This document shows, in pieces, positions 3,237 through 55,100 of a DNA stretch of 64,000 nt. The position numbers were made by a program, and so were the translations under genes. Origin of the DNA: Amoebophrya sp. A120 (taxonomy: Eukaryota; Protista; Dinoflagellata); contig CAJINV010000001.1 of assembly GCA_905178155.1 (NCBI GenBank), forward strand, positions 5,894,750 to 5,958,749, written 5' to 3'. How positions within the stretch are numbered: the first letter of the stretch is position 1; each line of letters begins with the position of its first letter. The notes beneath the pieces are model-generated. The model ran no database searches, was not told where the DNA came from, and was given only the letters and a program-made list of their open reading frames with translations.

Positions 3237-6200
3237 ATGGCGCTACCGCGGACGGTTCCGGTTGACGAGCTCGGCGTGCTCCACACCGAGCGCGAAGCGG
3301 TGGACCCGCTAGGAGCCCGGAACGCCACGACAGCGGCAGGCCCCTCCGCGATGGCGGACCACTCGCTAGTGCCAATCGTCCACCACACTTCTAGCGGAGT
3401 TGGCGTGAGTGCCACTGGTAGTGCTGTGGACCACCACCACCATGCGGCCGCGATCAACCGCAGAACCTACTCCCACGACCTGGTTCTGCGCGACCACTTG
3501 CTCGAGGCGTCGAATCACACGCCGTCGACGGTGCGGAACAACTACGACCGCTACAACAATTTGGATTTTTACCGCGGCGGCCAGCATCCCTACCGCGAGC
3601 CGTGGGTGGTCCTCAAGTCCCCGGAGGAGGGACTTTTAGTTACTTTCGACCCGGTGTCGCACAAGATCGAGCTGCTGCGCAACCACGACCACCACCAGGC
3701 CGGGCTCGACTACTGCCCGCTGTGCGGCCAGGTGCTGGGCGGCCACGGCCCGGCGGCGACGGAGCGGCACCGCTCGATGAGCGAGGCGGGCTCCTCGTCC
3801 GCGGGCGATGCGGCGGTGCGGATGGAGGACGTGATGGAGATCGACGAAACGCCAAATCTATCAAATGTAAAAATGTCTGGGTCTGGAAGATTGCCAGGTT
3901 TGTCATGCACATTTTGCGTGACTCCTGATGTCTGTGATGCATGCCCTAGCGTCACAGATTTTGTGAGGGCTTCCTGATGCTTATACCGCATCACAAATGC
4001 TCTTTCCTTGTAGCAAAACTTGGACTCTCTTTGCTGCTCATGCAATACAGATTTTTTTAGAATCCAAAATCAGCATGACAAGTTGGATTCTTCCAGACCC
4101 AGACATTTTTACATTTGATAAAATCTGGACGCCGCAGACTTCGACTCCTACCTCCTCGTGGAGGGCGCGGGAGGCAGCACCGTAGGAATGGACCACGACC
4201 ACACGCCCGCAGGCTCCGAAAACTCGCGCTCCCGAGGGGCCTCCGGGCGGCCACCGTTGTTCCCGACCAGCAGCGGCGGGGGGTCGACGAGCAGTCGTGG
4301 TGGCGGAAACAAGATGAACAGAAGAACTGCAACTGGGCCGGGAGGTGGTGCTACTGGTGGCTCATCCTCTTCCACGCGCGCGCGGTTCCACCCACCCAGG
4401 GCATCATCTTCGCAAGACCACAACATGATGAACACGACGACATCCACATCTTCTCGCAGCAATCACCGCACGAAATCCCCGGCGTTCAATCCGCAGAAAC
4501 GGAATCCACCTTCGCAGATGCATTCGCCGGACATCCGCGGCCTGCGGTCCCACTCCGAAACTTTTGTGGATCATCATCACCACAACTCCCACCACAACAC
4601 CCCGAATGCCGGCCCCTCGTCGTTTCGGCCCGCACGCGCGGCTCCATACCTGGCACACAACTACTTCACGCTTTTGAGTGCCGTACACGAAGAGGAACAG
4701 GAACTGCGCGAGCAGATGGACACAGCGGTCAATCAAGCCACATTGGACCACCACGGCGGAACCGGGGTATTTCCAGCCTTGGCGGACACCACGAGCGATT
4801 TCGATGTATCCTGAGTAAAAACGTACCCACACCAGAGTTGTAATGCAAATCTGCGTGCTGAAAATGTTTCTCATGCGGAGCCCCATGAGAAGCATTCTCC
4901 AGTCGTGTTTTGCAATTTGTCATGCTCCAATCAGCATGGTATGCTAGATCTGTGATGCTGCTGAGCTAGCTCAAACAGCACTACACTACGAATCCAAATT
5001 TGTCATGCAAAACAGCCAAAACTTGTGGATTTGTCTAGCCGATTCCCCAACTTGACTATGGTGTGGGTACGTTTTTACTCAGGATACGATGGCGGTGTAG
5101 TTCTGGATGACACGACGAGTTTTTATCCGTCCTTGCCCCCACCTCCAGTTCCCGCAGACAGCAGCAGAGAGAACGATGAGGATGACGAGATTCTTTCGCC
5201 GAAAAGCATACAAGACCGACCGGCACTAGAAGAAGGATCATTCCACCGCTCTAGATCCGCCTCCTCACGGAAGAGCCCGCTGCAAGAAGAGCCCGGTGTC
5301 GAGACACTGAACACCGCGAGCGCAAGGACTGGAAGTCTGCCCCGAGCCGAATCCATCCCTACTTTTGACACCAGTGCCCCGCCGGACACCAACCCGGGAA
5401 TCTTTCAGCTCACCACGGGTCCGGCCACGCGCGTGATAAAGCCGCTGGCATCTTCTGGCGGGTCGCAGTCCTCGTCGAAAACCGGACATGGTCCGGGGGT
5501 TGCAGCCGGACATGGTCCTCCGGTTGACTACAACGGTTTATTTGGACCACCTGCAAGAACCGCCACTACCACTTCTTCCGCAGGAGCTGCGACCAACACC
5601 GCAAGCACTAACGCGAAGCAGTACGGGCAGCTGCCGTGCGGCTTGATGAACGACGGCTACTACGAGCGGTTTTTCGTCGAGGTCGAATCTTTGGGACAGG
5701 GAAGTTTCGGGCACGTCTTTCACTGCCGGCACACCATCGACGGCGAGGCGCTGGGGGAGTTCGCGGTGAAAAAGGTCGCGGTGGGCGATGATCGCCAATG
5801 GCTGCGGAAAATCATTCGCGAAGTGAAGGCTTTCGAACGGCTCAACCACCCGAACATCGTGCAGTACAAGCACAGCTGGCTGGAATCCTGGCAGGTGAAC
5901 GCTTGGTGTCCCCGCGTGCCGTTTCTCTTCATTTTGATGCAGTACTGCAATCGGGGTAGTTTGCAGCAACTGATCGATCGCAACTACGAAAAGGTCTGTT
6001 TGGAACAACAGCAACAACAGGGGCGCGCAAAGACGGCCGCGAGTGGTCACCTGGTGCAACTGAACGCGCCCGCGGGCTGTAGCTCGCACAAACGCGGCTC
6101 GCAAGCCGTCGGCAGTAGTTCCTGTAGCAGTGCAGCGCACGCCAACATCCCGACTAGCACTGCGTCACAAAATAGCAGCGGATCGTGCGGCAAAAATGCG

Positions 6201-10928: not shown

Positions 10929-13900
10929 ATGCCGCCTCGAAAAGGCGGGCGCAAGCGGAAGTTAGCGGACGATGACTCCGAGGAACAGTCTCGTGCGCGA
11001 CAACCGAAGCAGGTCAAGGCCGAAATACAACCTGCCGAGGAGGCCGTACCTCCATTCGCGGAGGAACTACCCGCTGCCGGTGGAGAAGCAGAAAATGATC
11101 CTGCTGCCGTACAAGAAACACTTGCCGTGGAGCTCCAGCCAGACGAAGTCAATGAAGAACCAGACGCGTTTGCAGCAAACGAACAAGAAATTGCGGCGCC
11201 AGCTGCACAGCCGCAAGAGTCCGCCGAGTCGTCAAGCAGCTCGTCCTCCTCATCGTCAGCAGCTGCACAGGAGGAAGCACAACATGCGCCCGCCGCCGAC
11301 GAGGAAGCTGTGCCAGCAGACGCTGAAGTAGATGTCATGGAACAGCAGGTCGACCCCCCCGCAGAACCGCCTGTTTCGTCCAATGCAAAGCAGGTTGCCA
11401 GTGCTTCGAAGAAATCTTCCAATTCCTCCTCCTCTTCGTCCTCATCCAAAGCGGCGAACAAAAAAAAGGATCCGCCTTCCGCCTCAAGTAAAAAGAACCA
11501 GCCACTCTCTGCGGGCAAAGTTGTAAACAGTGCCAGCAAGGCGGTTTCGTTTAAGAAGCCGGCGAAGAAGGACACGATTGAAACGTTGCTGCCGCCGTTG
11601 GAAGAGGACGAGGAGAAGCCGGAGCCGAAATCCGCCATGAAGGGCAACAAGGCGAAAACGCCGATGAAGGTGCAGTTCTCGCAGGCCGAAGTCGAAGAGT
11701 TCTCCGCGTCCCAACTGAATGGCACGCCGCGACTGGACCCCGTGACCGGACTTCCGCTCAACAGCTCGGCTCCAACGTCAAGCCAGCAACTGCCCGTCCC
11801 AGGCGCGTCAGCAGCAGCATCCTCGTCTTCTCAACATCATACAGCTGCGTACTACAACAGTGGCAGTGCCTCTGCCCCGCCAGCCTCGTCTATGTTCATG
11901 AACAACAGCGCAGCCTCGGAGCAAGATCAAGAAGAATACCAGCAAGGACCTCCCCCGCCCAGTGGCACCGGTTCGAACGAGGGGTCCGTCCGGCCGTCCG
12001 CGGTTCCCGGGGCGGCGCCCAGCGCGCAGAACAACACGAGTTCCAATCCCTCGTCGGCAGCGTCGCCCGACCTGCCGGACAACAATGTGGTGCAGGTGGA
12101 GAAGGAGCCCGAGAAAAAGCAGCGCCTGATGATCGAGAAGATCGAGCTGGAGAACTTCAAATCCTACGGCGAGAAGCGCACCATCGGGCCCTTTCACCAG
12201 CTCTTTTCCGCGGTCATCGGGCCCAACGGGAGCGGGAAGTCCAACACCATTGACGCCCTGCAGTTTGCGTTCGGAAAGCGAGCCAAAGAGGTGCGACAAA
12301 ACAAGTTGTCCGAACTCATCCACAACTCCAAGGGGAAGGAAAATTTGAAAATGTGCCGGGTCTCCGTCTACATGATGGACATTTTGGACGAGCCCGACTT
12401 TGACGCAGACAAGCCGTACACCGTCGTGCCGAGTACTTCGTTTTTAAAAAAAATTTCAGTTTGTTATTTTTCTGTACCACTAGAATAGTCCTTGTGGTTT
12501 GCTGAAGCTTTTCCTTCGTGTCAGTACTTTGGCAGGTTATCAACAAAGTGAACTCGACAATAACCACACTCCCTTGCAGACACGGAGATCGTTCTAACGC
12601 GAGAGGCAACTTCGAAGAACGTGTCCACCTACTACCTAAACGGCAAGACGTCAAGTTTTACGGAGGTAACCGACAAACTGAAGGAACGCGGCGTGGATCT
12701 CGTGCACAACCGGTTTCTGATCCTGCAGGGCGAGGTAGAGGCCATCTCGCTGATGAAACCCAAGGCAGTGATATGAGGGTGCGCAACTGCTCTGTCTCTT
12801 TCTCATTTGTCATGCAAGAGTTCTGCCAAATTCTGTCTCTGACCCTTGCGGCCGTCTATGCTTGTATGGCAGGTTCTGGAAGTGTGGCCCAAACTGCACT
12901 ACAATCCGGGCGTTGATTTGTCGAGTAATTGCAAACGCGGCGCTTTACTTTCGAGGTGATTTCTGCTGCTACTAGCGCCGTCGCACTGCAAATATAGGAG
13001 CAGATGGAGTAGTTGCTTTTGCACTCTGATAGGCGAAGGAGGGCGGCGAAGACGGGTTTCTGGAATACCTGGAGGATATCATCGGCAGCAACAAGTACGT
13101 GCCGGCCATCCAGCAGGGAAACCGGGACCTGGAGCTGATCACAGGAACGCGGACGGACAAGTTGCGGATGTACCAGATGTCGGAGAAAGCGCGGGAGCAG
13201 ATCAAGCCGCAGTACAAAGAGGCACTGAAGTGGATCGAAACGAAAAAGCACCTGCTCATCAGCGAGGCCTACCGGAAGCAACTGGAGCGCAAGTCCTGCC
13301 GCGAGACCGTGACGGAGGTGCAAAAGTGCCACGACGACGCGGAAAAGCTGGTGCAGGAAAACCAGAAAAAGAAGGACGAAATCGTCGAGAAGCACAAGAT
13401 ATGCATTGCAAAAGTATCGTACTCGTCGTATAAATGCGAGTCTAGGATGACGGATCTGCCTTCTATCTTAGCTGAATCCGCACGACGAATTCATTTTTCT
13501 TCTAGGAAGATAAAATTTGTTACGCAAGTCGTACGAGTTGTACGATACTTTTGCATTTGATACAAGAAGTTGACGGATGAGCATCAAGATCTGCTGAAGG
13601 TTTACCGGGCGAAAATGGACGAGCTCAAGGGATGCCAGGAAAAAATGGCGCAATTCGAGATATCGCAAGAAAAAACTGTTTCACTGTGAACTTGTGATGC
13701 AGAAAATGGATCGCAGCCGTGTGTATCATGCCACACATGCAAGACAATGGATTTCTAGCTGTGTTTTCCCTTAGGAACCCCGCATGACAGATTTTCAGTA
13801 TCACGCGTAACAAACGAAACTTGTGATGCAGATTTTGCAAAATCACCACAGTGAAACAGTTTTTTCGTGCGATACGAGATGGACGACAAACAGTGCCAGC

Positions 13901-16900
13901 AGGAGAAGCTCGAAACCGAGCATATGCATTGCAAATACGTCTGGGTCTGGAACGCTGGAGCTTGTCATGCTAAATTCCAATCACGCAAAAATCTGTGTTG
14001 CCTGAGTACCAAAAGTGGCCCACTTTTGACCAAGCTGAGAGGGATTTTCTCATGCAGGGCAGGCATGATAGAGACCTCACAGAATCTGTCATGCTCGGTC
14101 CTGCATTCCAAACCTCATGGGCCATGGAAAACGTGCATGACAAGTCCTGCATTCTTCCAGGCCCAGACATATTTGCAGTTGATAGAGCAAAAGAAAAAGC
14201 AACTAGACGAAGAGATCCGGGAGGCGCAAAAGGAGCAGGCGGACCAAGCGAAGAATGCAGAGGAACAAGAAAAAAAAGTGATCCCGCAGGCCGAGCAGGA
14301 GCTGAAATCTACCGAGCGCTTTCTCGAGGTGCAGGAGGACAAACTGAAAAAATTCGAAAATTCCTTGTCAGGTTGGCTTTTTTTTTGCCTTTGTTGAACG
14401 CAAAAGACTAACAACGTTAAAAAACAAGCCTGCGCAGTGCTAGTGCTATACTAGAAATTTCTTATGGTTATGCGGGTGCAGCTGGTCGTGTATTTCTGGT
14501 GGGCTTTTTACTTGGTTGCCGGTGTTATTTTTCATTTTTCCATATATGTGAGGTGAATCGAGCCGGCTTCGCGAAGAGAAAATGCAGTGGGAGGCAAAGC
14601 AAGCGCCGCTCGCCAACAAGAAGCAGGAGCTATCCTGTGTAAAATATTGGAAGTGTTTGGCTATCGCTATCCTCCTTGTACTGCACACCGCTTCTGCACA
14701 GAGATTTCGCTCTCTTTGAATCATCATACATATAACTTCGTTTTGTCATTGGAAAGGAAGCGGCTGCACAATCAAGGATGAGGAAGGAGGTAGCCATCGC
14801 TATCCTTTCTTGACACACTTGATAAGGGTTGAGGGGTAAGCTGGAGATGCTGGAGTTCGAACGAAGTCAGCTCACAAAGCACGTGCAAGAAGCCCATGCG
14901 CGTTATCCTGTGAAAAATTATCGCATTGGTGAGTACAAGAAACATGATTTGCATTTGCAGGTCAGCAAAGAGAGGACTTACTACTAACTAAGGATTCTTG
15001 ATGTTCTCGAGCTCCTGTCTAAATGTTAGTCAGCATCGATCCCGGGAGATTACAATTCGATTTGCAGTTTTGCTGTGTCATCTTAAAAAAGACGACTTCG
15101 TCTTCACATCTCATGCGATAATTTTTTCGAACGCATAAACTGCTGGATAGGATGAATATGGAGCATGGTCAAGCCATTTATGAAACTGAAAAGTGCTGCA
15201 CCCGTGCCAAGGCAATTCTGCTATTTTGCGAGGAACATTCGAACACAGGAAATGTGATGAAGAAATTTGCGGCTTGCATGGCGCGGGTGGGCTTTGGCTT
15301 TTCCTTTTGATAGTGTCGGGCAGAGAAAGAAACTCCAGGAAGAAATAGATTTCTGTTCGGAGCAAGTATTGGTTGATTTGTCGTCTTTTTCTCCTCGCTT
15401 TCATATACAGTGTTTTGGTTTTCTTACCGCCCTATACGAACTTTGCTGGAGACCCCCCTAAGAGCAGATTTTAGGATTGCGTATTAAAACTGCTCGACAT
15501 TTCAGATACACGTGAAGACACCGCTGGTGCGAGAAGGGCAGAAACGGCTTGATGCTATCCGGCGTTAAACATCCGCATTGGCATCCCCACCTCAGCGTTT
15601 AGACACACACAAGCTTTTAATGCAAAATTTGCGTTTACAGAAACTGAAACAGATACAGATACAGTCCCGTCCGCTTCTTCCCGTCCGTGGCATCGAGGGC
15701 AACGCTGCGTGTGTGTATGTGTGTGTTTTGTAGGGTTTTTTTGCATGTTTGTCGTTGGATTTCCCAGAGCAACAGAATAGGAAAACGCTCCCGATGTTGT
15801 CGTGCAGGTTTATGTCCCGTCTGCTCAGAGGTGGTAGGTGATGGCCTTGTTGTGGCTGTCTTTGCACTACAGGATACAAAAGCTCGCGGAAATCATAAAG
15901 TCGAAGACGCTATGCATCAAGGAAATATGTCTGTGTTAGGATAGGAAGAATGCAACAGACTCGTGGTGCCAGGGCTAGCTCTGGCTAACACGAAGCTTTT
16001 CATTCTTGCATGAGCAGCAAAAGCAAAACCTATCTCCTTCATGCTATTAAGGATTTCTATACGCGGTATAAGACGAGAATAAGAAAGCATTTGTCAAACA
16101 CGTGCTGCTGTGGCTGCGCCTTGCATTGCAAATATCGCTGGGCACGAATAAGCTGCCGATTTTCCAGACCCAGACAGATTTGCAAGGCATAGACACCAAT
16201 TCTGAGCCACCTGAATCGCCAGTACGAAGAAGCGAAATACCAGGTGGAAGCTATCCTGAGTAAAAACGACCGCGCCCCAGAATTGTCGTGCAGATGCAGC
16301 AACATTTACATTCGTAATGCGCACCCCCATCATAGGTATGGGAGGCAAGGGCATTTGCGTTTTTCGCCGTGCTGGGCTGTAAACAGGACAACCGGGCAGA
16401 TGGCTTTGTGATGCGGCTGTCCTTACTAACCTGTAATGATGCGTGAGCGTGACTCCCAAATAGAAATAAAGTTCAGGGCGGAAACGTTTTTACACGGGAT
16501 AGAGGCCCACAGAAACACTACCACACGCATACAAATGTACTGATAATCTGTTTCACTGTGACGAATAATTTTTTCCACAGCTTGCATGCTCATAGTGTGA
16601 AGGCGAATGAAATCCCACTTGCCTCAGAAAAAAATCTGATATGCACCTACCGCAGTACCAATACCTCCTTTATCTTTACATGTTAACTTTGTTATGGTCT
16701 TTCGTTTTACCAAAGAGTTTCGTCGTGCACTCATCTCTTGCAATAGCGTCACAGGAAAACAGTTTTATCTTGGATACACACGAGCAAGCTGATGAAAGGC
16801 CTGTACGAAGTATCCGCTGGAAAAGCGCTAGCATCAAGTACAACAACGCAAAAATGATCAAACCGACATACAGTACGAGAATGCACTTTGAGCAAATGTA

Positions 16901-19900
16901 TAACGTGCCTGCCGCCTACGTGCTCGCCGATGAAAATGTGAAAATTTTCTTTCAGTGTTTTCTCATGTCTTGCAGCTCTATCGTGATTGCAGACGATGTG
17001 CTCATATGCTAGTGACATTCTGCGCGATAAAACGCGCGGCGCAAGGGCGACGTAGACTTCATTGACCGACTGGGCAACCTTGGTACAACAACCTCTAATC
17101 CGTTATACTTTGTTCATGAATATGTGTCTTGTCTTTCTCGTCGTCAGCTCAATAAAAAGGTGCACTGCATAAATTTGCTATGCGGGGCGTATGGTTCTTA
17201 AAATCCCACTATACCTGCACCTTCTTCACCAATTTGATGTATAAAAATCAGGTAAAATTGATGACAAGTACGACGTTGCGATAACCCAGGCGGGCGGCGG
17301 GAAGCATGCTTTTGACCAAATCGTGACCGAAACCGCCTCGCAGGGAACGGCGATAATCAAGTGGCTTAGCGAGAACAACGCGGGTCGCGCGCGAGTCATC
17401 GCCTTGGACCAGGTCAGCAAGGAGGGTTGGGACCGAAACCCGGGCAATTTACCCCGACCGCGGATCTTCGACATGGTTCGAGCCACAGAGGACCGACTCA
17501 GGCCCGCATTCTACTTGCTACTGAAAAACACGCTCGTGGTAGAAACTATGGACGAGGCAACTCAGGTACAACTACTTATTTTGATACGAATTCGATTGAT
17601 AAGTGTTGAAATACGAAAGTATAACGTTGCACGGTAGAATTTCGTAAAACTGAAAGAGCAAAAGAGATGAAAGCGTAATAGTTATTGTTGTAGCGACGCG
17701 GTCCCCTTCGTCATCGTCTGGCTACACCGCTAGCGTTGCAGCTGTGGCAGCGGACGTGCGCAACACTGTGCGAGAAAGATTCAGAGAACATGGATGTGAC
17801 AAGCTAAAATTTTTAGGTGAGCCGGCATAACGGTCGACACCGAGTGGTTACCCTCGATGGGGGGATCGTGGATCCAAGCGGCACGGTCACGGGAGGCGGA
17901 ATGCAGAAAGCGGAGGGAGGCGGGTTGTCGGGACCGGAGGCAAGTGGTACGACACGGACGAATCTAACTCGGAATCCCCTTTTCCTTGCATCTACTTGCC
18001 GAGCTGGTGTGCATTGTCAATTGCTTTTTCCTTTCATAGAGAACTAACTGAAACTGCTCTACTAGCTCTACTACTTAGAGAATGCGCTGTAGTAGTAGAA
18101 AATCACCAATTGTACCCATATGACCTTAGTATTGTGTTATCGTTTATTCATCCGTAGCAACTGCGTCTGCGTGTGGAGAAGACGGATCGCACTTCGCGAC
18201 ATGCTGTCCACCTTTCTTTATTCTGGCTTTTCATGGTGATGGTTGTGCGAGTTTGACAGTCAAGAAGAAAAAGCAACAAGTCGGAGGTGGGATTAAGTAC
18301 GTAGGGATTGGAGTACGTCTTCCACTGCACAACCCGACCGGCATATTCGGAGGCGGAGGTGGAGAAGATGAAAAAGGAACGGGACGAAGCCAGGGAATAT
18401 GTTGCAGGAGTGGAGAAGGAGCTGGTTGAGCTCACGCCCGTCGTGCAGGAGGTTTCTAATGAGCTCGAGCAGAAAACGCGGACGAAAAAACACTATGAGG
18501 CGCGGGTCCCCGACCTTGACAGAAATATCGAGCATTATGCCAACCGGATCGAGGAGGCAAAAACGATGCCCGTGCTCAACCCAGAGCAAGAAAAGGCGGT
18601 CTCGAAGCTGCAGACCGAGGTACTAGGTTCTTGTGTACAACGATTAATTGTCATCGTAGATCGATGTACATGATGTGCTACGTACAAAGCGTAATTTTGA
18701 TTAAGTTCACCGCCTGTTGTAACGGGAACCAGCTTTGATGGTACAGAAGTGAAGGCATGTAGTTCAACCAGCCGATAGCGCGGAGCGCTCGCATCCGCGA
18801 CTGATGCGGAAATAGACACGTTAAAAATTTGCATATCAGGTGTCCAAAGTGACGAGCGAAATCGGGAATGTGGACCTCGAATTAACGGAGGCCACCGACA
18901 AGGTGTCCGAGCTGACGAACGCGATTTTCAACGTGGGCGGGGAGGAGCTGAAGAACCTGCAGAACGAGGTGAACAACGTGAAGAAGAAGGTGGAGCAGCT
19001 CCGCAAGGGCCACATCAAGGCCAAAGGGCAGGTGGAGATCTTCCGCAAGAACGTGCAGGAAGCGGTAAAAAAGGAGGCGGAGTCGCGCAAGAAGCAAGAA
19101 AACGCGGAGCAGGCGCTGGTCGACCTGGAAAAGCTGGTGGAAAAAACCGAGAAGGAGGCCGGTGAGTGCCTGGAGCGCTTCCACTTGCTCATGACGGAAA
19201 CGTATCAAATGTAAAAATGTCTGGGTCTGGAAAAGTGTAGACTTGTCATGCAGATTTCCCATGACCCTTGAGGTCTGGAATGCGGGACTTAGCATGACAG
19301 ACTCTGCGAGGTCTCTGCCATGCCTATCCTGCATGAGAAACTCCCTTCCAACTTGGTCAAAAGTATAGAACAGCTTTTGGCACTCATGCAACACAGATTT
19401 TTGCATGCTTCAGATTTTTGCATGCTTCAGTTGGCCTCGCTGCCGATGCTGTCGGTAGCGGATGTCCGCGTTCCTTTAGAAGTATGGCGGGAAGCGAAGG
19501 TTCAGATTTACCATGACAAGTTGTAATCTTCCAGACCCAGACATTTTTGCAATTCATAGAACACAAGCCGACGAGCACCAGCGCAAGGATCTGGACGCTC
19601 AGCTTGCCAAAATATCACACAGAAAAAAGCTGGCAGGGCATATTGATATTTGTAATGCAAAAATAAACACACAGAAAAATCTGCATTGCATATCCGAAAC
19701 GGCATGCTATGAGGCCGCCCATGCCAGATTTTTCTGTGTATTTATTTTTGCATTACAAATATGCCCTGCCAGCTTTTTTCTGTGGGATACAAAATTGACG
19801 AAGACCAGAACGCGGTCGCAATGGTCTTGCTCGACGTCCAGGACTATCTCATTGAAGGCAAAAGTAGTACTAAATCGCATTCGTATGAACGTTGAAGAAT

Positions 19901-22900
19901 TCAAATTGCAAGAATCTTCTGACGAGACATTTAGACAAAATCTGCGAAGATGTCCTTGCTTCGATTTTTACCTGGACCTGCACGAGATAGTCGATGTTTT
20001 GAAAGCATTTGTGCCAGGAGTGCGAATTCCGTGATAAAAGTACAACTTTTGGGATGCATAGGGAGCAACTAAGCCGGACCAAGGAGAAACTCCAAGCCGC
20101 AACCGCTTCACTGGAGGACACGAATCGGAAATTGGAGCTGTTCCGCAAGGAGTACAAGGACCTTCCCGATGAGGATGAGGAGGAGGACGAGGAGGAAGAA
20201 GACCTAGACGTTATCAGGATGAATATAAGTGCCCCTAGAATGAAGTTGTTGTACCCCAGAAAGGCGACGTGTTTGTATATGCAAAAGTAGTTATTTTTAT
20301 TTTTTCCAGTGGAATCAATCATTTTCATTTTCATTTCCCATCTTGCATAGCACCACAAAGAACAATTCTCCCTGCGAATCTAAGCAAAAACTTGTTTGAT
20401 ATAAAAAGGCCTAGCCGCAGAAATGAAAATAATCGATCCCCAGCTCTGGCATTCGACGTGAGGCACTTGTTCTTTTTACTCTGATAGACGAGGACGGCAT
20501 TTACAGTGCAAAGTTCTACTCGCAGGGCTGGATTCGCAGCAACAAAGAGGAACAAGAGCGAATCGACCGGGAACGAGAGGCTGAGAAGGAAGCGAAGCGC
20601 AAGGCCAAGGAGGATGCGAAACGGAAGAAACAGTGGGAAATTAAGCACGGTCCGATTTTCGATGATTTTCAGGATGTCTGGCTTTCGGTGCACCCCGACG
20701 ACGACGAAGCCCTTCCGGAGGGTGCGGACGTGCCGGAGACGGGTCATCCGAGGCTCAGTTTGGAGGAGGTCATATTGCAATGAAAAATGCCACCACCCCA
20801 TAACCTGGCAGCATTTGCATTGCAAACCTCGCCAATGGAAAAAATTCCTCCTCTTGTATGTTTTAGCATGACAAATTTTTAATGCTGAATAGCTAAAATT
20901 TGTGTTGCGCAAGACCCCAGAACCAGAAGCAGCCGGGTCTGTCGTGCAAAAGACACGTTGCGCACATAGATTCTGCATCAGAAAGGCTCGTAGTCCTTTC
21001 ATCATGCAGGACAAAAAGCTTTCATTTGGCAACTTTGCATGAGAAACTTTTGCAAATGCTGGGGCGGGGGCATTTTTCATTGTAATAGGTCACGCGCTCC
21101 ATTCTCGGAATCCAGTCCAAGATGAAAACGTTGAACCAGCCCAATTTCCAGATTTTTATGCAAGACAAAAACTGTGTAAGTGTAACTCTGTAATGCAGAA
21201 CATGCATCAGAGTTACACCTGTCATGCCAGACAACCATGAAGTCCTCCTTTCACGTGTGTTTTCCCTTAAAAGCCGCGCATGACAGGCTTTCTCTGTCAT
21301 GTAGAGCAAATTTGTGATGCTGTCAACCAAAGAAAGTTACACTAACACAGTTTTTTTCTTGGATAATTTTTGCCGAGTATTCAATTCAAATCCGTTTTTC
21401 GTCCGCCCCCATGACAGACTCAAAAATATTCTGACGGGCACGGGATTTTTTTCTTCTTTTTAGTACGCATGGTTAGATGGCCTTAGTTGTCCTCAAACGC
21501 GATAGCCACAGGCGGTTACGACATTCTCAAATGAAACCACAAATTCAATCGATTTTCCAGATTTTCATACGTTTACTTTACACATGCGAAGGGATGGATC
21601 AACTTTTTCATCTCAAAACATCGACAGGTACAAGACACGGACAGAGGAGCTCCAGGCAAGAAAAGCGGAGTTTCGATTGGCGGACAAGGAACGGACAGAG
21701 ATACGGAGCAAGCTCGAGCAAGAAAAACTAAAGCGGAAACAAGACTTTCTGACGGGCTTCAATGTGATCAGCCTGAAACTGAAGGAGATGTACCAGCTAT
21801 GAAAAAAAGAAAACATGAGCACGTCCATAACTCTGCAGGTTTCATCGCAAGATGGTTTCAGTCCGCATGAGGATTTTTTCTTGCAGACTGAAGACATCGG
21901 GTCTTACACTTACTGCAGATGAAACACCAAGGAATGAAGCGCGTTTGCGCAGCTAGCTTAGCTTGACTCCGATGAACTTCTACGCATGAATATTGAGTTG
22001 CAAAAATGCACGAAAGTGATTGTGCTGATGTTTTTTTCCTGAATACCAGATGATCACTCTCGGGGGCGACGCGGAGCTGGAGCTAGTCGACACCTATGAC
22101 CCCTTCCAGGAGGGCGTCATGTTCTCCGTGCGACCAAAGTTGAAAAGCTGGAAACAAATCACGAATCTTAGCGGTAGTGAATTGCTATTTTTATCTACCT
22201 GTGCAACAGATGAAATTGAAAACGAATATCGTCCAAACGATGATCATGACCTGGGGATCGGTGATATAATTATGCGCAACATTCACATTGAGTTGACATT
22301 CAAATTTCTAAAAATAATTTAGGTGGCGAAAAGACCCTGGCGTCGCTCGCTTTAGTTTTCGCGTTGCACCACTACCGGCCCACTCCGATTTACTTCATGG
22401 ACGAGATCGATGCGGCGCTGGACTTCCGGAACGTGAGCATCATTGCCAACTACATCAAGCAAAACACGAAGAATGCGCAGTTCATCATTATTTCGCTGCG
22501 GAACCACATGTTCGAGCTCGCCGACCAGCTCGTGGGCGTGTGCAAGAAGAACGATCAGTCTATTATCAAATGTAAAAATGTCTGGGTCTGGAAGAATCCG
22601 AAATTTGTTATGCTGCTTTTGCATGACACAGAATGTCTGTCATGGAAGCCCTAGCATCACAGATTTTTAGAGGCCTTCCTGATGCCTATTCCGCATGAAA
22701 AACGCCCTCCACGCGTAGCACAAACCGGACTCCTCTTGCTAGTCATGCAATACAGAATTTTTTAGAGTCCAAAGTTAGCATCACAAGTTCCAACCTTCCA
22801 GACCCAGACATTTTTGCAATCCATATCTATGTCGGTGTCCGTAAACCCCGAGAAGTTCATTGCCGGGAAGAAAAAGAGAGGCGCGCTTGGCTACGAAGAA

Positions 22901-27200: not shown

Positions 27201-27974
27201 GCAAGTTTGTCATGCTTGTCTGGCATGACTCATAAATCTGTAATGCATGAACAGGAAAAGGGCCTCTTGCCTGTCATGCAAACACGCAGTTTGCCATGCG
27301 GATAAGGAAACACAGGAGCAGCTGAAAAATTTGTCATGCTTAGCTGCGTATTGCAGTCCGCCCACTAGTCAGATTTTAGCATCACAAGTTTCCAGACCCA
27401 GACATATTTGCATTTGATAGAAGATTCAGAAACCTCGACAAACACTTCGACTCCATTGGCCTCTGATGTCCCTGTGGCCTTTATCGTGGGGACAGGCCAC
27501 GCCACCGGGGAGACCCTGGTGTTGCTCCAAAGCGATAGAAATTCTAGTTGTACAGCTTTTAGCAAAGCTGTTGACCACGACAGCTCAGGAACTACATCTT
27601 GGTCTTCTGACTTTGAAGACATTATCGACACAAGTGCCACAACATGCTGGAGTACTGTTGCTTTAGATGTTGAAAAGTCGTCGTATAATAACACGAGCGG
27701 GACCTGCTCCGACGATCGTGGCCACAACTTTTGGTTGTACGGCAGCCCTGCTCTGGTCCCAGGCGACGGTCGGTTACCAGCAAACAGGATCCTACCTCAG
27801 TTCCGGCCTGAAGAATCCAATACAGATAGAAGCTTTATTACTGCTAGTTGTGCTCGGAGAAATTTATTACGTACGCTTGAAAGCTCACCTGTGTACGAAA
27901 CGCGAAACACTCACAGCACTATGCTGAATGACCTTGAAGTTCTGAATGAAGCGATGATGCACGTAGGCATGTGA
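24281..27974 (+). CDS. LCAT/phospholipase-like alpha/beta hydrolase; exons approx 24281-26864, 27058-27166, 27425-27974
   Basis: IVFVPGYKGS, FVYDWR, nucleophile motif VVAHSFG, C-terminal PGDGRLP and H..MLND; frame restored by removing two elements. Confidence 0.75.
26865..27052. mobile_element. Degenerate TIR introner hidden inside an open reading frame
   Basis: Direct repeat CAACA at 26860-26864 and 27053-27057; TATCAAAG...AGTGCCCCAC / GTGGGCACTTTTCCATATGATG; join WLN|TLAVPRRLSDPAAEEHLRHCLALARAFW. Confidence 0.7.
27167..27419. mobile_element. TIR introner, family B
   Basis: Family B TIR; direct repeat GAAGA. Confidence 0.95.
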
Positions 27975-37518: not shown

Positions 37519-39679
37519 ATGTCAGCCACTCAGTGTCCGGTGGGCACCATGGTGTGGAGCGAATGGACGCCCGGAAACCGCAAAGTCGCTGTGGTTTACG
37601 CGTATTACCCCGATACCAACTTCTACCACTTAGATTGGATCCACCAACGGGCGTTCTGCCACGATCTTCGCTCTGGTCACGAGAATGAGGACCGGTTCAA
37701 GGTGTATTGTCAACGACGACCGTGGCAGGTGCACATATTAGATGATGAAGATGAATGCTTGTTATCATTTTTACGACCACGACGATAATTAACGACTTCG
37801 AGGATGCAATTCCATTGATACTTACACAGCCCACCACGACCTCCAATTTTACTATTTGGTTAGCGCATCGCACGATTCCTCCAGTTTATTACACCACATC
37901 AATCGAAATTCCTTTTCCCGATATGAAGATTTTCAATCGAAAAATCTAGATGTGGCACCACTCGAACCAGAACGCGTGCGGGGCGTTCGAGGGGGGCAGC
38001 TCCACCCCGGGCCTGCAACAGGGTGGGGACGACGTGACAGTGGACGACGGGAAGGGGGTATGAATTGCAAATGTGTCTCGGTCTGGAAGGTTGCAACTTG
38101 TGATGCTGCATTTGGATACTACAAAAATCTGTATTGCATGAACAGCAAAAGCGGTCTCGTTTCTGCCACGCCGAGAGGGCATTTCTCGTGCGGTATAGGC
38201 ATCAGGAAGCTCTCGTCACAAAATCTGTGATGCTAGGGCATGCATCACAGACGTCAGAGGTCATGCAAACTGTGCATGACACCTTCCACACCCAGACATG
38301 TTTGCATTTAATAGGGGGTGTTCATCGGGCTGGGCGTTGCCATCGCGATTGTCTCCGCGTTGTACCTGTGCTACAAGTGGTATGGATGTGTCAGAATCGA
38401 AATTGACAAATATCGAAAACTTTGTGATGCATAAAATCGATACCAGTTGGGGCCTCAGTTTCCAAGTGGCGCATGACAAATTTCGGGAGCACCCAAATCC
38501 AGTCTGTCGTGCTGTTTGGACAAAGAAGACTGTTCCTGCCATGCTACTCTGGCAGCGCATTGCATACCCCTAAACAGGCTTACAATCGGTCTCAGTTGCC
38601 TGCTCCCCAACACAGGCCTTCAGTGCCCTGCATTTTATGCATCACAAGTTTTTCGATTTTGTCGATTTCGATCCTGACACATCCATAAGTGGGCCCAGGG
38701 GGTCGTGCGGGAGAAGCACATGAAGGAGCATGGGGAGTACCCGAAGAAGCGGACATCGTCGTTCCAGTCGCCGGGCAAGTCCGGCGGGTGGACGGCGTGG
38801 ATGAAGGACGCGAGCTTCACCTGGAACAAAACCATGTCACCCTGGAAGTCGTTTTCGCCGCAAAAGGACCTGGACAACCACGACGGTATTGCGCCCGGTG
38901 GTCACGCTCACGGGGGAAGCGCGAATAAACGGGATTCATACAATCGCGGGCCGTCGCTGTGGGAGCTGGCGCAGCAGGAGTACGGCGGCCAACAGGTTGC
39001 TGGAGCAGAATTTCTACCGCAGCACCCTGGGCAGCTTCAACTCCAACACCCACAACTTCTGAACACTAGCGAGCACGAACTTCCCAACAAGAAGATGAAC
39101 GGGCGCATAAGCAAAGGCACTGGAGGTGCAGCAGTTTCTGCGGCGGGACCGCCCCGCGACAGTCGTCGGCCTAGTCAGAACAAGCTTTACGGTGGGGGAA
39201 GTACTCACTCGATCGGGTCAACGGCCGCCAGTGCGACCGCATCTTCCGCGGCCCCAAGTGCGCGCGGCGTGTACAACAACAATCCGCCGTTGCCGAGTCC
39301 GAACTCGATGGAAGTCGTGTCTGTCGATTCTGCGGTCACCCCCCGACACCCGGGCTTGGCGATCCTGAATCCCCTGAAACTGTTCCCAACCGACGAGGAA
39401 ACCAAGCGGGGGTACAAGTTTCCAACCGGAACATCTTCAAGGCCAACTGGTGCAACTACTACTTCCCAACCAGCGTCTCGCCGCCCAAGCGTGGACTCGC
39501 AAATGAGCCGACAATCCGCGCAGATAAATCAGCGGCCGAGTAATCGGGTGGCGCCGGTGCCGCCGGGCGCTGCATCAACCGGAACAAGCACCTCCGCCTC
39601 TCGCCGCCCGTCACAAAACACCCAGCTACGCAATGGTGCGTTATCGTACCACGTGGCAAACAAATACGCGGTGCGCTAA
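37519..39679 (+). CDS. Hypothetical single-pass membrane protein; exons approx 37519-37728, 37950-38058, 38319-38380, 38693-39679
   Basis: Splicing yields the hydrophobic helix GVFIGLGVAIAIVSALYLCYKW followed by a low-complexity tail; GT-AG intron 37729-37949. Confidence 0.7.
38059..38313. mobile_element. TIR introner, family B (inverted relative to 3859)
   Basis: Family B TIR; direct repeat GGGGG; interior matches the reverse complement of the 3859 copy. Confidence 0.93.
38381..38687. mobile_element. TIR introner, family H (about 55-bp TIR)
   Basis: TATGGATGTGTCAGAATCGAAATTGACAAA / TTTGTCGATTTCGATCCTGACACATCCATA; direct repeat AGTGG. Confidence 0.95.
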
Positions 39680-46456: not shown

Positions 46457-49400
46457 ATGCGTTTCGGCTTGCCGTTGCTCGCCGTCGGGGCATCGGCCCT
46501 GGCGGTCGAGAATTTTGACAATGAGGAGTATTTTGCGGACCCGAGCGAGGCCCTGAACGCCTTCCACTCCCAGTATCGAAGTATGAAGGAAGAAGCCGAG
46601 CATCGGACAAAGCACATGAAGCCGGATGAAGCTCTGGAAATTTTGAAGGCAAAGCTGCCCGAGCACGACCACAGTCACTTGTCCATGCTCGCGCTGAAGG
46701 CACGAGACAACGGCACTTTGAACGTCCAAGAGATGGCAAAAGGTAGTCAGATCTGGCGTCTGTATTTTTTCGTAGTTCGAAGATCGGATTCCGATGCGTG
46801 TAGAAAACTCCCCATCACGAAGTTCCGTGAGTTTAGAAGCCACTTCGCACGTGACAAAGCACCATGTGCGAAAAGACGTTTTTTTTCTAACAAGAGACTT
46901 TTTAAATCCCAAAACCAGGTGTTGTTGCCATCAACAACATGTACAAGGAGACCGATCAGGAGCGCATTACCACCCTGACCACGTGCTCGCAAAAGCTGTA
47001 CGCCATCTACCGCACGAACTTTATGATTGCAAAGGAAATCAAGGGCTTGAACGCAAAGAGCGAGGACAAAAACCAGGTGTACGACGACGCGCAGGGGCAG
47101 AAAAAGGAGTTTCTGGATGACAAGAAGACCCTGGAACAGGAGCGTGAGCAGCTGAAGGTCGACCACGCCAACGACATGAAGGAGCCGCTGGCGATATCGA
47201 AGTGAAAAAAGCCCCCACCCCATATCGGAAACGGAAGATGCGCGAATTTGTGATGCTGTATTTGAGTACACAAATCGACTTGTATTGCTAGAAGGCCAAG
47301 AGACGAAGCTGCGGCCTAAATTGCAGGCAATCTGTCATGCTGTTTCCCAATTCCAGTTGCCGCCTGTCATCCTGGAGCTGCAAGGCTTTCCCACACTGGA
47401 CAGCACTACAGTCCGCATCTTTTGCCTTCTAGCATCACAGAGCTGATTTGTGACCACAAATCTGCATCACAGATTTCCGTTTTGATATGGGGAGGGGGCG
47501 TTTTTCATTGTAATAGGCGAAGGAAGCGGAGAAGGTCACGCAGGAGCGTATTTTCACGGTCATTTTGAAGGGCATCAACGAGAAGTGCGGCAGCGGCGAC
47601 CTGAAGCCGAAGACCAAGAACGCCATGCGGTTCCGCCGCAACCCGCAGGTCGCGCCGGAGTCCAACGCGACCAACGCCACCGCCGGGTCGGCGCCGTCCC
47701 TGGTGCAGAACAGTGAGGAGTTCACCGTCGACGAGGCCCGCGAAATGGACACCGCGGACGCCGAGTCGCGCATGTGCGTCGGCATGCAGCAGGAGTCCAG
47801 CATGAACCGGTTGTTCCTCTCGGTGTTCTCCAGCCCGGAGGTGCAGGAGGCCACGAAGACGGGTCTGGACATGGACTCGCAGAAGGCCATGGACATGACG
47901 CTCGCGAACCTGCGCGCCGCCGAAGACGAGGAAGTCGCGCCCAAGTACCAGAGCCAGGCCTTGTTGCAGAAGTCCCCGTCTCTGCAGGGGCCCTGGTCCG
48001 TCTCGGACGGTACCGACACCAAGTCGCCGATGTGCGGCTCCGTGGAGCAGATCGACTGCGACGTGCTCATGACCATGATGGGTGAGCAGCTGGAGTGCGC
48101 CCGCGAGGAGCTACGGAAGGCTAAGGGTATTAAGCTTTGAACAATTTAAATCTAAATTTGGTGCCGTTTCTCTTCTCCTCAAATCTTGTTGTATGTGCGG
48201 ATCTAACTCTGGCCATCTGTTTTTATCATGAAAAATTCTTGTACGATATCTTCCAAAAATTCACTCCAGGTGAGCGTGCCGCGCTCGAGGACAAGCAGCG
48301 TGAGGAGATGCGTCTGAAGGACGGTTCTATCGTTGCCGCGCAGAAGGCCGCGGACACCCAGCAGAAGTTGATGAACGATGCGCGATCGACCGTGGACGGT
48401 TACAAGAGCCAGATCAGCGACTTGAAGGAGGAGCGCATCCGCTACGCGAAGTCCATGCACCTGGAGAAGACTAAGTGCCACCTGCAGCTGTTCGAACTCG
48501 AGGCCAACGGCTTGTGTGCATGCAAGGCGCTCCGCAACTTCTGGCTCAAGGAGACCCTCTCCAAGGCCGGCGTCGAGGACGACGCTGTCACGGACTGCGA
48601 GGTAATTACTTATTTTGTGATATGATAGCTTCGGTTGCTCGATTTGGGTTTATTTTTTGTGTGTCATTGTTCTTGGAAGTCGTGCGATGGTGATCGGCTA
48701 AATTTAGATATCAACACACTGCCGCCACACAATAACCTCATCTCACCGGTAAAAACCACTCCAGGCTGCCGACACCATGATGCCGACCGGCGAGTGCCGC
48801 ATGGGCCCGAAGGCCACGGGTGAGATTCGCAAGTGCGTTGCCGGGAATAAGATGCCGGAGGACGACGAGCGCTTGCCCAACCGCAAGTGGACCCGGCAGA
48901 TGGAGGGCGAACCGGGCCAGTCCAAGGACCTCGAGTCCCTGGGCGAGAAGCTGTACCTCGAGTGCCCCCCGGAGACCATGATCCTTCCCTGCAACCGCTT
49001 TTTGTGCCCCGTCGACTGCGAGGTCGGCGAGTGGGGCGACTGGCGTGATTGCTCCGCGGAGTGCGACGGCGGCACCGAGCTGCGTGAGCGGTCCGTGGTT
49101 AAGGAGCAGGCCTTCTTCGGTCAACAGTGCCCGGACCTGATCCAAACGCAGAAGTGTAACACCCAGAAGTGTACCGAAAACTGCAAGCTCCACGCCGACT
49201 ACGATGACGAGGGCGAGGGCTGCTTGATGGTGCTTATTACTTAGCCGCTTTTTTTTTGATGATGCAAGTTGTTTTATGGCAAATTTCTTTTATATGCTCT
49301 TCAATGAGAGTCGCATAGCACAAAGTAGATCTGAATTCGTTGTTCTTTTGTCACGCAGGCTTGCGTCCAGCCGCTGTCCAACACGGAGTCTTCGGGCGCC

Positions 49401-52052: not shown

Positions 52053-52155
52053 GCGTCGTCATCTCTGTGACATTCGCCTCCGGCAGCGCGCTCATCACTG
52101 AATTTTTTGTAATGTGTCATACGCACTAGAAGTAGTCTCAGCAGAGTTCCAAAGG

Positions 52156-55100
52156 ATGCGGCAGCAGATAGCGGCGCTTTTAGCGACCGCCGGGGTTTCG
52201 GGTCGAGAGACCCAGAACCCCGTGGTGACCGGCGCCATGGAGTCCACGTCGCCGGATCTTGGCGAGGTGGCCAGTATGCTCGAGGACATGCAGAAGGGTA
52301 TTCAGCAGCTGCACGATGAGGATGCCTCGCTGTACGAAAAGGAAGCCTGTCACTGCGAAGAAGAGACTTCAAATCTGGCCGAACCGGGGAAGGGCGTGAT
52401 TCCGTTGGTAGAAGCTCGTTACGGGCCGTTTGTGTTTTCTTTTATGTTGTCATTTTCTTTATCTGCGCAGTGTGTGACGCCTGGGTAGGTAAACAGAGCC
52501 AGGGTAGTGGGTATTTGCAAGAACGGGTTGAGTAACATCCCACATGTATGATAACTCAAACCAACTAAAATACAATTTCCAGGCCGTCCTCGCCATCAAT
52601 GAGGCCAGTCAGACGATTAAAGAGAAGACTGCCTTGAAAAAGGACGAGGAAGAGGATCTTGCGACCAACACCGAGGAGCTTGCTGCCGTCCGCAAATTAG
52701 AGAAGGAGCAATCTACGGCCTGGGCCAAGCGAAAAGCTGAGCTGGAGGCTAATATTGCAGAGTCCACTATCCAAGAAAAAAACTGTGTGAGTGTAACTTT
52801 GTGTTGCAGAACATACAACAGAGTTACACCTGTCATGCCAGACAGCCACGAAGTCCTATTTTCATGTGTGTTTTCCCGTACAAGCGACGCATGACAGGTT
52901 TTCTCTGTCATGTAGAGCAAATTTGTGATGCTGTTCCCCAAAGAAACTTACACCTACACACTTTTTTTCCTGGATATCCACACAGGCAGCCAACGCGTTA
53001 GCCGGCGCCACACAGAAATTGCAGTCGGAAAAGCACGCTTCGATCCTCAAGCTGGTTGAAGACATGATGACGGAAACCAAAGGTACATGCTAGCGCTCAT
53101 TTTTAGGTTTTCTAGCTCTTTCCACAAGCATCTCATTTGTACTGGAAGCTGTTTTCAGTTTCATCAATTTCCATTTTAACACCGACCGCAGACACTCTGA
53201 AGACCTACAACACGGAGAAGTCCACGGAGCAGACTGCTCGCGACGACCAGAACGTGGCCAACATTAAGACTGAGGCCGACGAGAAGGAGCAGATCCGCCT
53301 TGGCGAGGAGTCCATCGCGGACTGCAAGGAAAAGATTGGCAAGGCCAAGACCAAGTTGCTCGACAACGAGGGCGAGTTGAAGGACGCGCACCAACAGCTC
53401 GCGGACCTGACCGCGTTTTGCGAGGCCCAGGCGGGAGATTGGGACAAGATGTCCGCCGAGCGCAAGAAGGACTTCGGCGTTTTGGTATCAACTGTAAAAA
53501 TGCCTGGGTCTGGAAGAATTCATGTTTGTCATGCTTGTCTGGCATGACTATTAAATCTGTCACGCACGTTACCCAAGAGCTCCGCTTTTCTGTGATGCAG
53601 AGGCGCAGCTTGTCATGCAGAATAGGCAACACCTAGGAGCTCAGAAACTTGCCATGCTGAGCCAGCATTTGTAGCCTCATCATGAGACGCTACCCAGCAT
53701 CACAAGTTCCCAGACCCAGACATTTTTCCTTTTGATATTTGGAGGTCGCGATCAACGTTTTGACGTGCGGTAAGGAGAAGTGCGGCGTGGCGCCGGACGA
53801 GACGAATTTTGCCCAAGTCTCCTTCCTGCAGACGTCGAAAAAGGCCGCATTCTTGGCGAAGTTTTCCCAGAAGAACCGTTCTCACATGAAGAAGCTGCAG
53901 CAGTTATCCTGAGTAAAAACGTCCCCACCCCAGAGTCAAGATGGGGATTTTGCAACACAAGCCATGAAGTTTTGGGAGCCACGCATGACAAATTGCAGGC
54001 TGTATTGTAGTGCAGTTTAGCAAGGGAAGTCGCATTACAAATCCATCTGCTTATCCTGTTTACAGCATTACAAGTTCCAAAACACGATCGGGAATGCCTA
54101 TCATGGAGATGCGCATTACAAATGCACTTGCGCTTGCAGATCTGCATGACAGCTATGGGGTGGGGACGTTTTCAAATACGATAGCAGTCCGACTCCGCCA
54201 AGAGAAACGCTGTGCGCTCTTTGGTTCGCTTCGGCGAGCAGAACGGAATGAGCGAGTTGCTGCAGTTCAAGAGCGTGTTGAAAAACCAAAAAGACCCGCT
54301 TCTGGGGGCGAAGAATCTGTTGCGCAAGCTGATCGAGAAGTTGACGACGGAGATGGCGCTAGACCAGGGCGAGATGAACAAGTGCTCTACGGCGTTGGCG
54401 GAGTGCACGACCAAGCGAGACTTCGCGCTGGAGGAAGTCAGCAAGGTGAATACTATATCAAGATGTGCATATTTTCTTCAAATCCGAGCGCCTTTTTCTT
54501 TTTCACTCGCTGAAGTCACCTTCTGGGTGACTTTGACCTTTGTTACTTCGGGGTTACGTTTAGGGCCATGAGTTAGAATTCAAAGTCGCGTTCGAAAAAA
54601 AAACACGAAACCCAACAGTTGAAAGTGGAGGCCGAGGAGCTCGGATTGTCGGTCGAAGAGGACAAGAAGGAGTTTGGCGAGCAAGCTATCCCACAGAAAA
54701 AGACAGGCAGGTCAGATTTGTAATGCAAAAATCAATACACAAAAAAATCTGCCATCGGCGAGCCCATAGCATGCTGTTCAGGACACGCAGTGCCGATTTT
54801 TTTGTCTATTTAATTTTGCATTACAAATCTGAGCTGCCTGCTTTTTTCTGTGTGATACAAGCCGTCGAATACAAGGAGAACCAGGACAATGCCAACGAGA
54901 AGACGGAGGTTGTCATCCCCGAAATGGAAGAGGCGTACGCGACCGAGAAGCAGGAGCTGACCAAGCAGAAGACCTGGCTGCACCAGGCCGTCGTGATTCT
55001 GCGGAAGCACTTTGGCATCGAGGAGAACGATTTGCGGTCGGGCAGCAAGGACTCCGCCTCCGGCCTCACTGAGGGCGTCACGGAGAAGTCTACGTCGGCC

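What the first reader, a model, noticed from the sequence alone, without database searches (positions are those of the whole stretch)
3859..54857. Elements are tolerated in either orientation within same-strand genes
Seen: sister copies are reverse complements of each other although all host genes are on the + strand: A 529/4807 vs 53905; B 3859 vs 38059 and 19203/23007 vs 13923; E 19613 vs 54687; F 33412 vs 47195; G 21157/52768 vs 33798. Established: normal spliceosomal introns are polar (branch point and pyrimidine tract at the 3' end). Inference: the removal signal lies in the symmetric TIR or in the hairpin it forms, which would bring the splice sites together. This also argues for DNA transposition over reverse splicing.
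Basis: partly seen in the sequence, partly recalled or inferred. Interest (0 to 1): 0.7.

Follow-up and report, generated by a model that had tools for sequence, protein, structure and literature searches.

The report
Introns spliced out facing either way
In the marine parasite Amoebophrya A120, small transposon copies sit in genes facing forwards and backwards about equally often and both kinds are missing from transcript contigs, likely because their mirror-image ends fold together and mark the cut sites in place of the usual GT-AG signals.

Summary
The window is Amoebophrya sp. A120. The elements are its published TAT...ATA introners with 5-bp target duplications (PMC7789003). Opposite orientation in + strand genes holds for families A, B, G and, more weakly, E; the F pair faces the same way. 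Transcript-like contigs (one study, two samples) remove a reversed B copy (13923) and a forward one (19203) exactly, while DNA contigs keep the elements. Among 152 strand-called copies from a second assembly, B splits 35:35, C 12:16, A 5:9, G 7:1, with 28 unassigned, so neither orientation is depleted. Only 6 of 179 such introns read GT-AG, and decayed copies keep an end-to-end stem. Best reading: the terminal stem likely sets both splice sites for a U1-less spliceosome. The elements are known, as are either-orientation introners in Polarella; the orientation ratio and cut register for A120 were not in the papers I searched. The scan had no earlier notes on this genome.

The parts
529..1199 (+). 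Family A element, majority orientation over 529-779, rearranged 3' part; TSD CACGT
   Evidence: no RNA laid here
3859..4120 (+). Family B element, reference orientation
   Evidence: a transcript-like contig piece starts at 4121, joint itself not shown
4807..5086 (+). Family A element, majority orientation; element+5 nt absent from contig X4 (pieces 4121-4801 and 5087-7367 contiguous)
12772..13031 (.). Decayed element, mismatched TSD; joint allows cut after TSD position 3-5
13400..13562 (.). Short TIR element in SMC4 gene, removed with 5 nt
13661..13874 (+). Family G element, same orientation as 21157, removed with 5 nt
13923..14184 (-). Family B element, reversed; joint 13917 to 14185 in X4, X5, X7
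14631..14824 (.). Decayed element in SMC4 gene
14904..15137 (.). Decayed element; the two TSD copies differ at all five positions
15179..15312 (.). Decayed element in SMC4 gene
15556..15876 (.). Decayed element; annotated residues D-E fit only a cut after TSD position 4
   Evidence: annotation, not RNA
15911..16191 (-). Diverged B-like element, weakly reversed (z about 7); joint allows cut after position 4-5
16252..16501 (+). Family A element, majority orientation, removed from transcript-like contigs
16519..16776 (.). Decayed element TAC..ATA; terminal triplets not predicted to pair, internal stem kept
16811..17029 (.). Decayed element, reads GT..AC in the inferred register; both spliced and retained contigs seen
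17948..18331 (.). Intron GT..CC fitting N-TAC..ACA-NNNN with a weak stem
19203..19558 (+). Family B element with ~95-nt insert; joint 19198 to 19560 allows cut after position 1-4
19613..19789 (+). Family E element, removed with 5 nt
19845..20060 (.). Decayed element; joint allows cut after position 1-4
20773..21087 (.). F-like termini, orientation not assignable
21157..21365 (+). Family G element, majority orientation, removed in X4 and X7
22564..22825 (+). Family B element, reference orientation
23007..23267 (+). Family B element, reference orientation
23321..23571 (+). Family B element, reference orientation
27167..27419 (.). Family C (B-type termini); the three C copies in the window face the same way
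33412..33734 (+). Family F element, same orientation as 47195
33798..34009 (-). Family G element, reversed; removal restores a peptide colinear with paralog P0011
   Evidence: no RNA laid
34052..34302 (.). Family C element
34363..34622 (+). Family B element, reference orientation
38059..38313 (-). Family B element, reversed; removal gives 88+99 stop-free codons on +
   Evidence: no RNA laid
38381..38687 (.). TIR element, single copy of its family in the window
47195..47515 (+). Family F element, same orientation as 33412
52768..52976 (+). Family G element, majority orientation; absent from annotated protein P0001
53486..53737 (.). Family C element; absent from P0001
53905..54183 (-). Family A element, reversed; absent from P0001
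   Evidence: no RNA laid
54687..54857 (-). Family E element, reversed relative to 19613; absent from P0001, A25 ortholog colinear
   Evidence: no RNA laid
10929..20170 (+). Host SMC-family gene as annotated (P0009); carries 16 non-GT-AG introns, all fitting N-TAY..AYA-NNNN
29075..34689 (+). Host gene P0010
52156..55529 (+). Host gene P0001, with A25 ortholog P0002

Best explanation
These are Amoebophrya A120 introners: TIR elements with 5-bp target duplications that lie in exons in both orientations and are removed from transcript contigs together with five host bases, likely because the paired terminal repeats hold the intron ends together and set the cuts for a U1-less spliceosome. Shown: both orientations occur about equally (B 35:35); one reversed and several forward copies are removed exactly; DNA keeps them; one register is compatible with all 11 RNA junctions examined, one base before TAT and four bases after ATA. 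Inferred: insertion by a cut-and-paste DNA transposase that takes no account of the gene's strand; a single register for all copies; the terminal stem doing the bridging job of U1/U2AF; catalysis by the U2/U5/U6 spliceosome, which would read the U-A at intron positions +2/+3 that introners share with the window's GT-AG introns. A symmetric element offers the same two ends in either orientation, so orientation would not matter.
For: Joint 13917 to 14185 (reversed B) and 19198 to 19560 (forward B) in X4, X5, X7. 2058 nt between 12432 and 18838 in one contig equals the 19-intron model exactly. DNA contigs X1 and X3 run through elements. Orientation tally stable at three strand thresholds (B 35:35, 30:24, 19:18). 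Register 4 is the only one common to 11 junctions. No preference for G at +1 (51 of 179, 52.8 expected) and 6 of 179 GT-AG. Expected end-to-end pairs 25.6 in 11 decayed introners against 7.6 in 15 GT-AG introns; TAT:ATA paired in register in 7 of 11. For the spliceosome: T at +2 and A at +3 in 11 of 11 decayed introners and in 15 and 13 of 15 GT-AG introns; mixed forms GT..AC, GT..CC and a GT..AG intron with the same stem (30551) exist; AG at -2/-1 in 22 of 179 against 13 expected (p=0.02, uncorrected); nearly all spliceosomal proteins but no U1 were found in A120 (PMC7789003 section 10).
Against: No lariat, branch point or trans factor was observed. Three spliced introns lack the predicted terminal TAT:ATA pairing (16519, 17948, 19845), a fourth has it only partly (14904), and 17948 has a weak stem overall (10 expected pairs). 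A kept stem may be inherited from the TIR rather than selected. No single RNA junction fixes register 4; it comes from intersecting junctions and assumes one rule (PMC7789003 calls the sites variable), and one annotated intron near 31871-32120 has a 3-nt spacer. Only one clearly reversed copy has a direct RNA joint. The RNA runs are contigs, guessed to be RNA, from one study. The 149 extra loci come from one other assembly whose strain is not known here and have no RNA check. G is skewed (10:2 pooled, p=0.04 uncorrected).
Confidence: 0.5

Rival explanations
1. Same stem-defined cuts, but made by a separate non-spliceosomal machine, as proposed for Euglena nonconventional introns, which leave as circles.
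For: Neither GT nor AG is needed; fixed spacers from a terminal stem resemble the Euglena code N3CDG/CH'GN5-6|R (PMC12501133 abstract, sections 7 and 12); U1 not found in A120.
Against: The +2/+3 TA is shared with GT-AG introns and mixed-boundary introns occur in one gene, whereas the Euglena paper uses the rarity of hybrids to argue for two machines; slight AG excess at the 3' end.
Confidence: 0.22
2. A relaxed spliceosome reads short linear cues that the TIR supplies on both strands (TA at +2/+3; A-Y-A at -7 to -5 with an upstream U-tract, possibly branch site plus fixed distance); pairing is incidental.
For: T+2, A+3, A-7 and A-5 are kept in 11 of 11 decayed introners, including those without predicted terminal pairing; 17948 is spliced with a weak stem.
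Against: 10 of 11 decayed copies still have at least 21 expected end-to-end pairs although no family match is left for most; so short a motif is common by chance; in young copies these cues lie inside a stem of about -28 to -55 kcal/mol.
Confidence: 0.2
3. The joins are reverse-transcriptase template switches across a hairpin between short direct repeats, not splicing.
For: Hairpin plus short direct repeat is the signature of such artefacts (PMC8240250, seen as a search listing only); all RNA evidence is cDNA-derived contigs.
Against: Three joins have only 1 nt of repeat; 114 of 124 elements carry stops in all three host frames; removal restores proteins colinear with the A25 ortholog and a paralog, so removal in the cell is required.
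Confidence: 0.03
4. The elements are cut out of DNA in the expressing stage, like ciliate internal eliminated sequences.
For: TIR/TSD anatomy and precise restoration of the empty site; DNA and RNA runs come from different samples.
Against: DNA contigs X1 and X3 run through the elements; a transcript-like contig retains intron 16811 beside the spliced form; the removed piece takes 1+4 bases from the two TSD copies. The joint table of X1 was cut short (763 rows not shown), so a minor joined DNA form is not excluded.
Confidence: 0.03

Closest known systems
Amoebophrya A120 introner elements (Farhat et al. 2021, PMC7789003; read: abstract, sections 10, 11, 12, 16, keyword passages, supplement legends)
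   Same: Same organism and elements: IR starting TAT + 7 nt + at least 3 A, 3-5 nt direct repeats, non-canonical sites, hairpin proposed to join exon boundaries, no U1.
   Different: The paper leaves the intron border unknown and does not discuss element orientation in the text or supplement legends searched (figures not seen). It doubts transposase mobilisation in A120. Here: 35:35 ratio and a common 1+4 register.
Either-orientation introners of Polarella glacialis (classes 2, 3, 6, 7, 8, 10) and Aureococcus anophagefferens (10.1101/2020.10.14.339549, passages)
   Same: DNA-type elements with TSDs that create introns in either orientation.
   Different: They take GT/GC/GA and AG sites from the element or TSD; classes 6, 8 and 10 are biased to one orientation. 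A120 copies show no dinucleotide requirement and family B no bias.
Euglena nonconventional introns (PMC12501133, abstract and sections 7, 12; PMC11282704 section 6)
   Same: TIR-derived terminal stem, TSD-like repeats, fixed spacers between stem motif and cuts, no GT-AG.
   Different: Motif CDG/CH'G with spacers 3 and 5-6 and a purine starting the next exon, against TAT/ATA with spacers 1 and 4 and no purine rule (103 of 179 A or G, coding background 54%).
Fritillaria borealis non-canonical introns (PMC11282704 section 6; 10.1101/2025.08.15.670264 abstract)
   Same: MITE-derived introns with TIR and TSD handled by an altered spliceosome.
   Different: Fixed AG-AC/AG-AT ends, duplicated U2AF, U1 present; A120 ends are free host bases.

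Membership tests
Amoebophrya A120 introner | Lies in the A120 genome | tested here: met
   Three proteins named A120 match window exons at 100%
Amoebophrya A120 introner | Terminal IR starting TAT, seven loose bases, then A-run | tested here: met
   A at positions 11-13 in 165-174 of 179 ends; motif as
Amoebophrya A120 introner | 3-5 nt direct repeat at the borders | tested here: met
   5-bp repeat, perfect in 23 of 27 young window elements
Amoebophrya A120 introner | Repeated, non-GT-AG, removed from RNA | tested here: met
   Families; 13 of 179 have any canonical register; joints
MITE (non-autonomous TIR DNA transposon) | TIRs, fixed-length TSD, short, non-coding, either orientation | tested here: met
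MITE (non-autonomous TIR DNA transposon) | Autonomous partner with the same termini and a transposase | not tested
   No genome held; PMC7789003 found none in A120; PMC12130899 assigns A120 introners to diverse TIR transposons
MITE (non-autonomous TIR DNA transposon) | Empty-site allele at DNA level | not tested
   Only the A25 protein was compared
Canonical U2 intron | GT/GC-AG ends | tested here: not met
   6 of 179 GT-AG in the inferred register
Canonical U2 intron | Polar ends | tested here: not met
   5' and 3' ends alike over 30 nt, partly by the detection rule
Canonical U2 intron | Branch point and lariat | not testable with these tools
   Only contigs cover the locus
Polarella/Aureococcus either-orientation introners | Splice dinucleotides recruited from element or TSD | tested here: not met
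Euglena nonconventional intron | N3CDG / CH'G N5-6 | R code | tested here: not met
   TAT/ATA, spacers 1 and 4, no purine rule
Euglena nonconventional intron | Terminal stem joining both ends | tested here: met
   Predicted folds, z -7.9 and -6.8 for a reversed and a forward B copy
Euglena nonconventional intron | Excised as a circle | not testable with these tools
   No raw reads of this strain cover the locus
DNA-eliminated sequence (ciliate IES-like; recalled) | Absent from DNA of the expressing nucleus | tested here: inconclusive
   DNA contigs keep the elements, but stage not matched and X1 joint table cut short

The most novel reading that the evidence does not exclude
A120 splices by an RNA ruler: any exon insertion whose ends form the TAT/ATA stem is cut one base before and four bases after the stem, with no donor or acceptor dinucleotide and no strand polarity. 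The stem replaces the lost U1 and the AG-reading step, making TIR transposons harmless in either orientation and turning them into permanent introns.
Probability: 0.45. Interest if true: 0.75.

Novelty: already known. Interest (0 to 1): 0.48.

Why it matters
The elements are described, but how A120 removes tens of thousands of non-GT-AG introns without U1 is open. A 50:50 orientation ratio places the whole signal in the symmetric ends, and the 1+4 register names the actual splice sites, which the genome paper left unknown. Together they give a concrete splicing code that can be tested on public RNA-seq and in reporters, explain why a transposon family could flood exons at little cost, and offer a second, apparently independent case beside Euglena of stem-defined splicing.

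Tried and rejected
No whole genome is held, so no genome-wide ratio for the window's own assembly. No RNA holder listed on record; X4, X5, X7 are guessed RNA and were accepted as transcript-like because they lack GT-AG introns. In one search the DNA run swamped the joint table, 6 of 21 joints were not shown. F as an opposite pair: rejected. Treating C as a reversed subfamily of B: left open, only 27167 gives a signal. A preference for G at intron +1: none. A conserved branch-point consensus in the 3' TIR: only A-Y-A is constant, no match claimed. Within-copy covariation of B ends: none over 12 nt (p=0.2), slight over 30 nt (p=0.002), which subfamily structure could explain. Rows dropped before the tally: 230 candidates, 202 with TAT/ATA ends and TSD match of at least 4/5, 199 unique, 152 with a strand call, 124 with family and orientation. 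Pfam found nothing for P0001. Literature: searches and passages gave no statement on orientation or cut register of A120 introners; figures, bioRxiv supplements and subscription papers (Huff 2016, Roy 2023 final, Henriet 2019: not read) were not seen and may bear on this.
Full report
Identity. Exon translations from three genes match proteins named Amoebophrya sp. A120 at 100%. The interrupting elements start TAT, end ATA, have terminal inverted repeats of about 30-60 nt and are flanked by 5-bp direct repeats; 23 such pairs with a perfect repeat occur in the window and none in 20 shuffles. This is the motif that PMC7789003 gives for A120 introners: TAT, seven loose bases, at least three A.

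Observation. To avoid the trivial symmetry of the TIRs I compared cores only. Families A, B and G have copies in clearly opposite orientation (reverse-complement scores 46-171 against forward 14-24, shuffle maxima at most 31). E is supported on a short core (61 against 25). F is not: its core aligns forward (51 against 38; 29 against 14-17 with the long arms removed). All host genes read on +: annotated proteins map on + with each element plus 5 nt removed, the A25 ortholog P0002 and the paralog P0011 are colinear across the junctions (the A25 alignment is gappy just upstream of 53905), and a held-out codon model calls + around 27 of 27 elements.

Are both orientations removed from RNA? Contigs of runs X4, X5 and X7 (one study, two samples; RNA is the tool's guess, but they lack GT-AG introns) join 13917 to 14185 across the reversed B copy and 19198 to 19560 across a forward B copy. 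Forward copies 4807, 13661, 16252, 19613 and 21157 are also removed, as is the weakly reversed 15911. One contig has 2058 nt between 12432 and 18838, exactly the length left after removing all 19 modelled introns. DNA contigs X1 and X3, which may be the source of the assembly, run through the elements. Reversed copies 33798, 38059, 53905 and 54687 were not covered by the two lays; they rest on annotation, homologs or read-through. Contigs cannot measure efficiency.

Is one orientation depleted? They held 199 unique elements; 152 got a host-strand call and 124 a family and orientation: B 35:35, C 12:16, A 5:9, G 7:1, three small families 4 copies, 28 unassigned. Among 106 with clear exon read-through B was 23:25. 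Stricter strand thresholds gave B 30:24 and 19:18. Only G is skewed when pooled with the window (10:2, p=0.04 uncorrected). These loci have no RNA check and the strain is unknown.

Where is the cut? With perfect duplications the joint can slide. Seven of 11 junctions have mismatched copies: they allow a cut after TSD position 3-5, 4-5, 4-5, 4-5, 1-4, 1-4 and 1-5; position 4 is the only one common to all 11. The annotated residues at 15556 fit only position 4. The intron is then N-TAT...ATA-NNNN. All 16 non-GT-AG introns of the SMC gene fit N-TAY...AYA-NNNN; one annotated intron in another gene (about 31871-32120) has a 3-nt spacer. PMC7789003 marks the border as unknown and variable. In this register the first and last dinucleotides are host bases: G at +1 in 51 of 179 (52.8 expected), GT-AG in 6, any canonical register in 13; AG at the end in 22 against 13 expected (p=0.02). 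The repeat itself is not needed, since joins with 1 nt of repeat exist, which also speaks against reverse-transcriptase switching; stops in all three frames of 114 of 124 elements make removal necessary in the cell.

Mechanism. A forward and a reversed B copy both fold into an end-to-end stem (z -6.8 and -7.9). Eleven decayed introners keep on average 25.6 expected pairs between their first and last 50 nt, against 7.6 for 15 GT-AG introns; TAT pairs with ATA in register in 7 of 11. Exceptions are 16519, 17948 and 19845, and partly 14904. T+2 and A+3 are shared with the window's GT-AG introns, and intermediate forms exist (GT..AC at 16811, GT..CC at 17948, GT..AG with the same stem at 30551). 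With U1 reported missing but most spliceosomal proteins present, I infer that the stem bridges the intron and sets the register for the U2/U5/U6 core (0.5). Rivals are a separate Euglena-like machine (0.22), linear cues only (0.2), an RT artefact (0.03) and DNA excision (0.03). That removal is at the RNA level and blind to orientation is well supported; which machine does it is inference.

Mobility. Reverse splicing would place copies in the sense direction (established reasoning). A 50:50 ratio, TIRs with a fixed 5-bp duplication, and an excised intron that includes site-specific host bases all favour DNA transposition. No transposase was looked for.

Known and new. The elements, their hairpin and the proposal of an alternative splicing route are published. 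Either-orientation introners are published for Polarella and Aureococcus, where they recruit GT/GC/GA and AG sites, and one survey's methods allow for opposite-orientation copies (PMC9860276). Stem-defined spacers are shown for Euglena. The orientation ratio and the 1+4 register of A120 introners were not found in the searches and passages listed under Tried and rejected. Verdict: known system, correct observation for four of five families, with a new and testable detail.

Noticed in passing
window 529-1199: Rearranged family A element: body 529-779, then a 23-nt copy of upstream exon (388-410), other sequence, and a right TIR identical to the left over 30 nt. Looks like capture of flanking DNA.
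   Followed up: partly
window 30551-30716: A GT..AG intron reads G-TAT...ATA-TCAG with a strong end-to-end stem: apparently an old introner that has become canonical in the same register.
   Followed up: partly
window 31871-32120: Annotated non-canonical intron TAT...ATC with a spacer one base shorter than the rule; annotation only.
   Followed up: no
window 16781-17063: Contigs retaining intron 16811 in X4 and X5 (depth 23 and 17) beside the spliced form (84 and 58).
   Followed up: no
window 20170-22900: Annotated protein P0009 ends near 20170, but the C-terminal SMC_N half is encoded at 22292-22651 and a transcript-like contig runs 1767 nt past 19198: the annotation seems truncated.
   Followed up: no
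run X9, on window 3859, 19382-19537, 23183-23321: Raw RNA reads carry family B termini 90-95% alike with other flanks and cover no exon: probably another strain with the same family.
   Followed up: no
window and L001-L149, family G: G copies are skewed to one orientation (10:2 pooled, p=0.04 uncorrected).
   Followed up: partly
window 40472-45346: A 1624-codon stop-free frame with a guanylate/adenylate cyclase domain and no element.
   Followed up: no
window 61950-64000: Coding repeat of 81-99 nt units rich in K, A, P, S and E; resembles nucleolar phosphoproteins (recalled).
   Followed up: no
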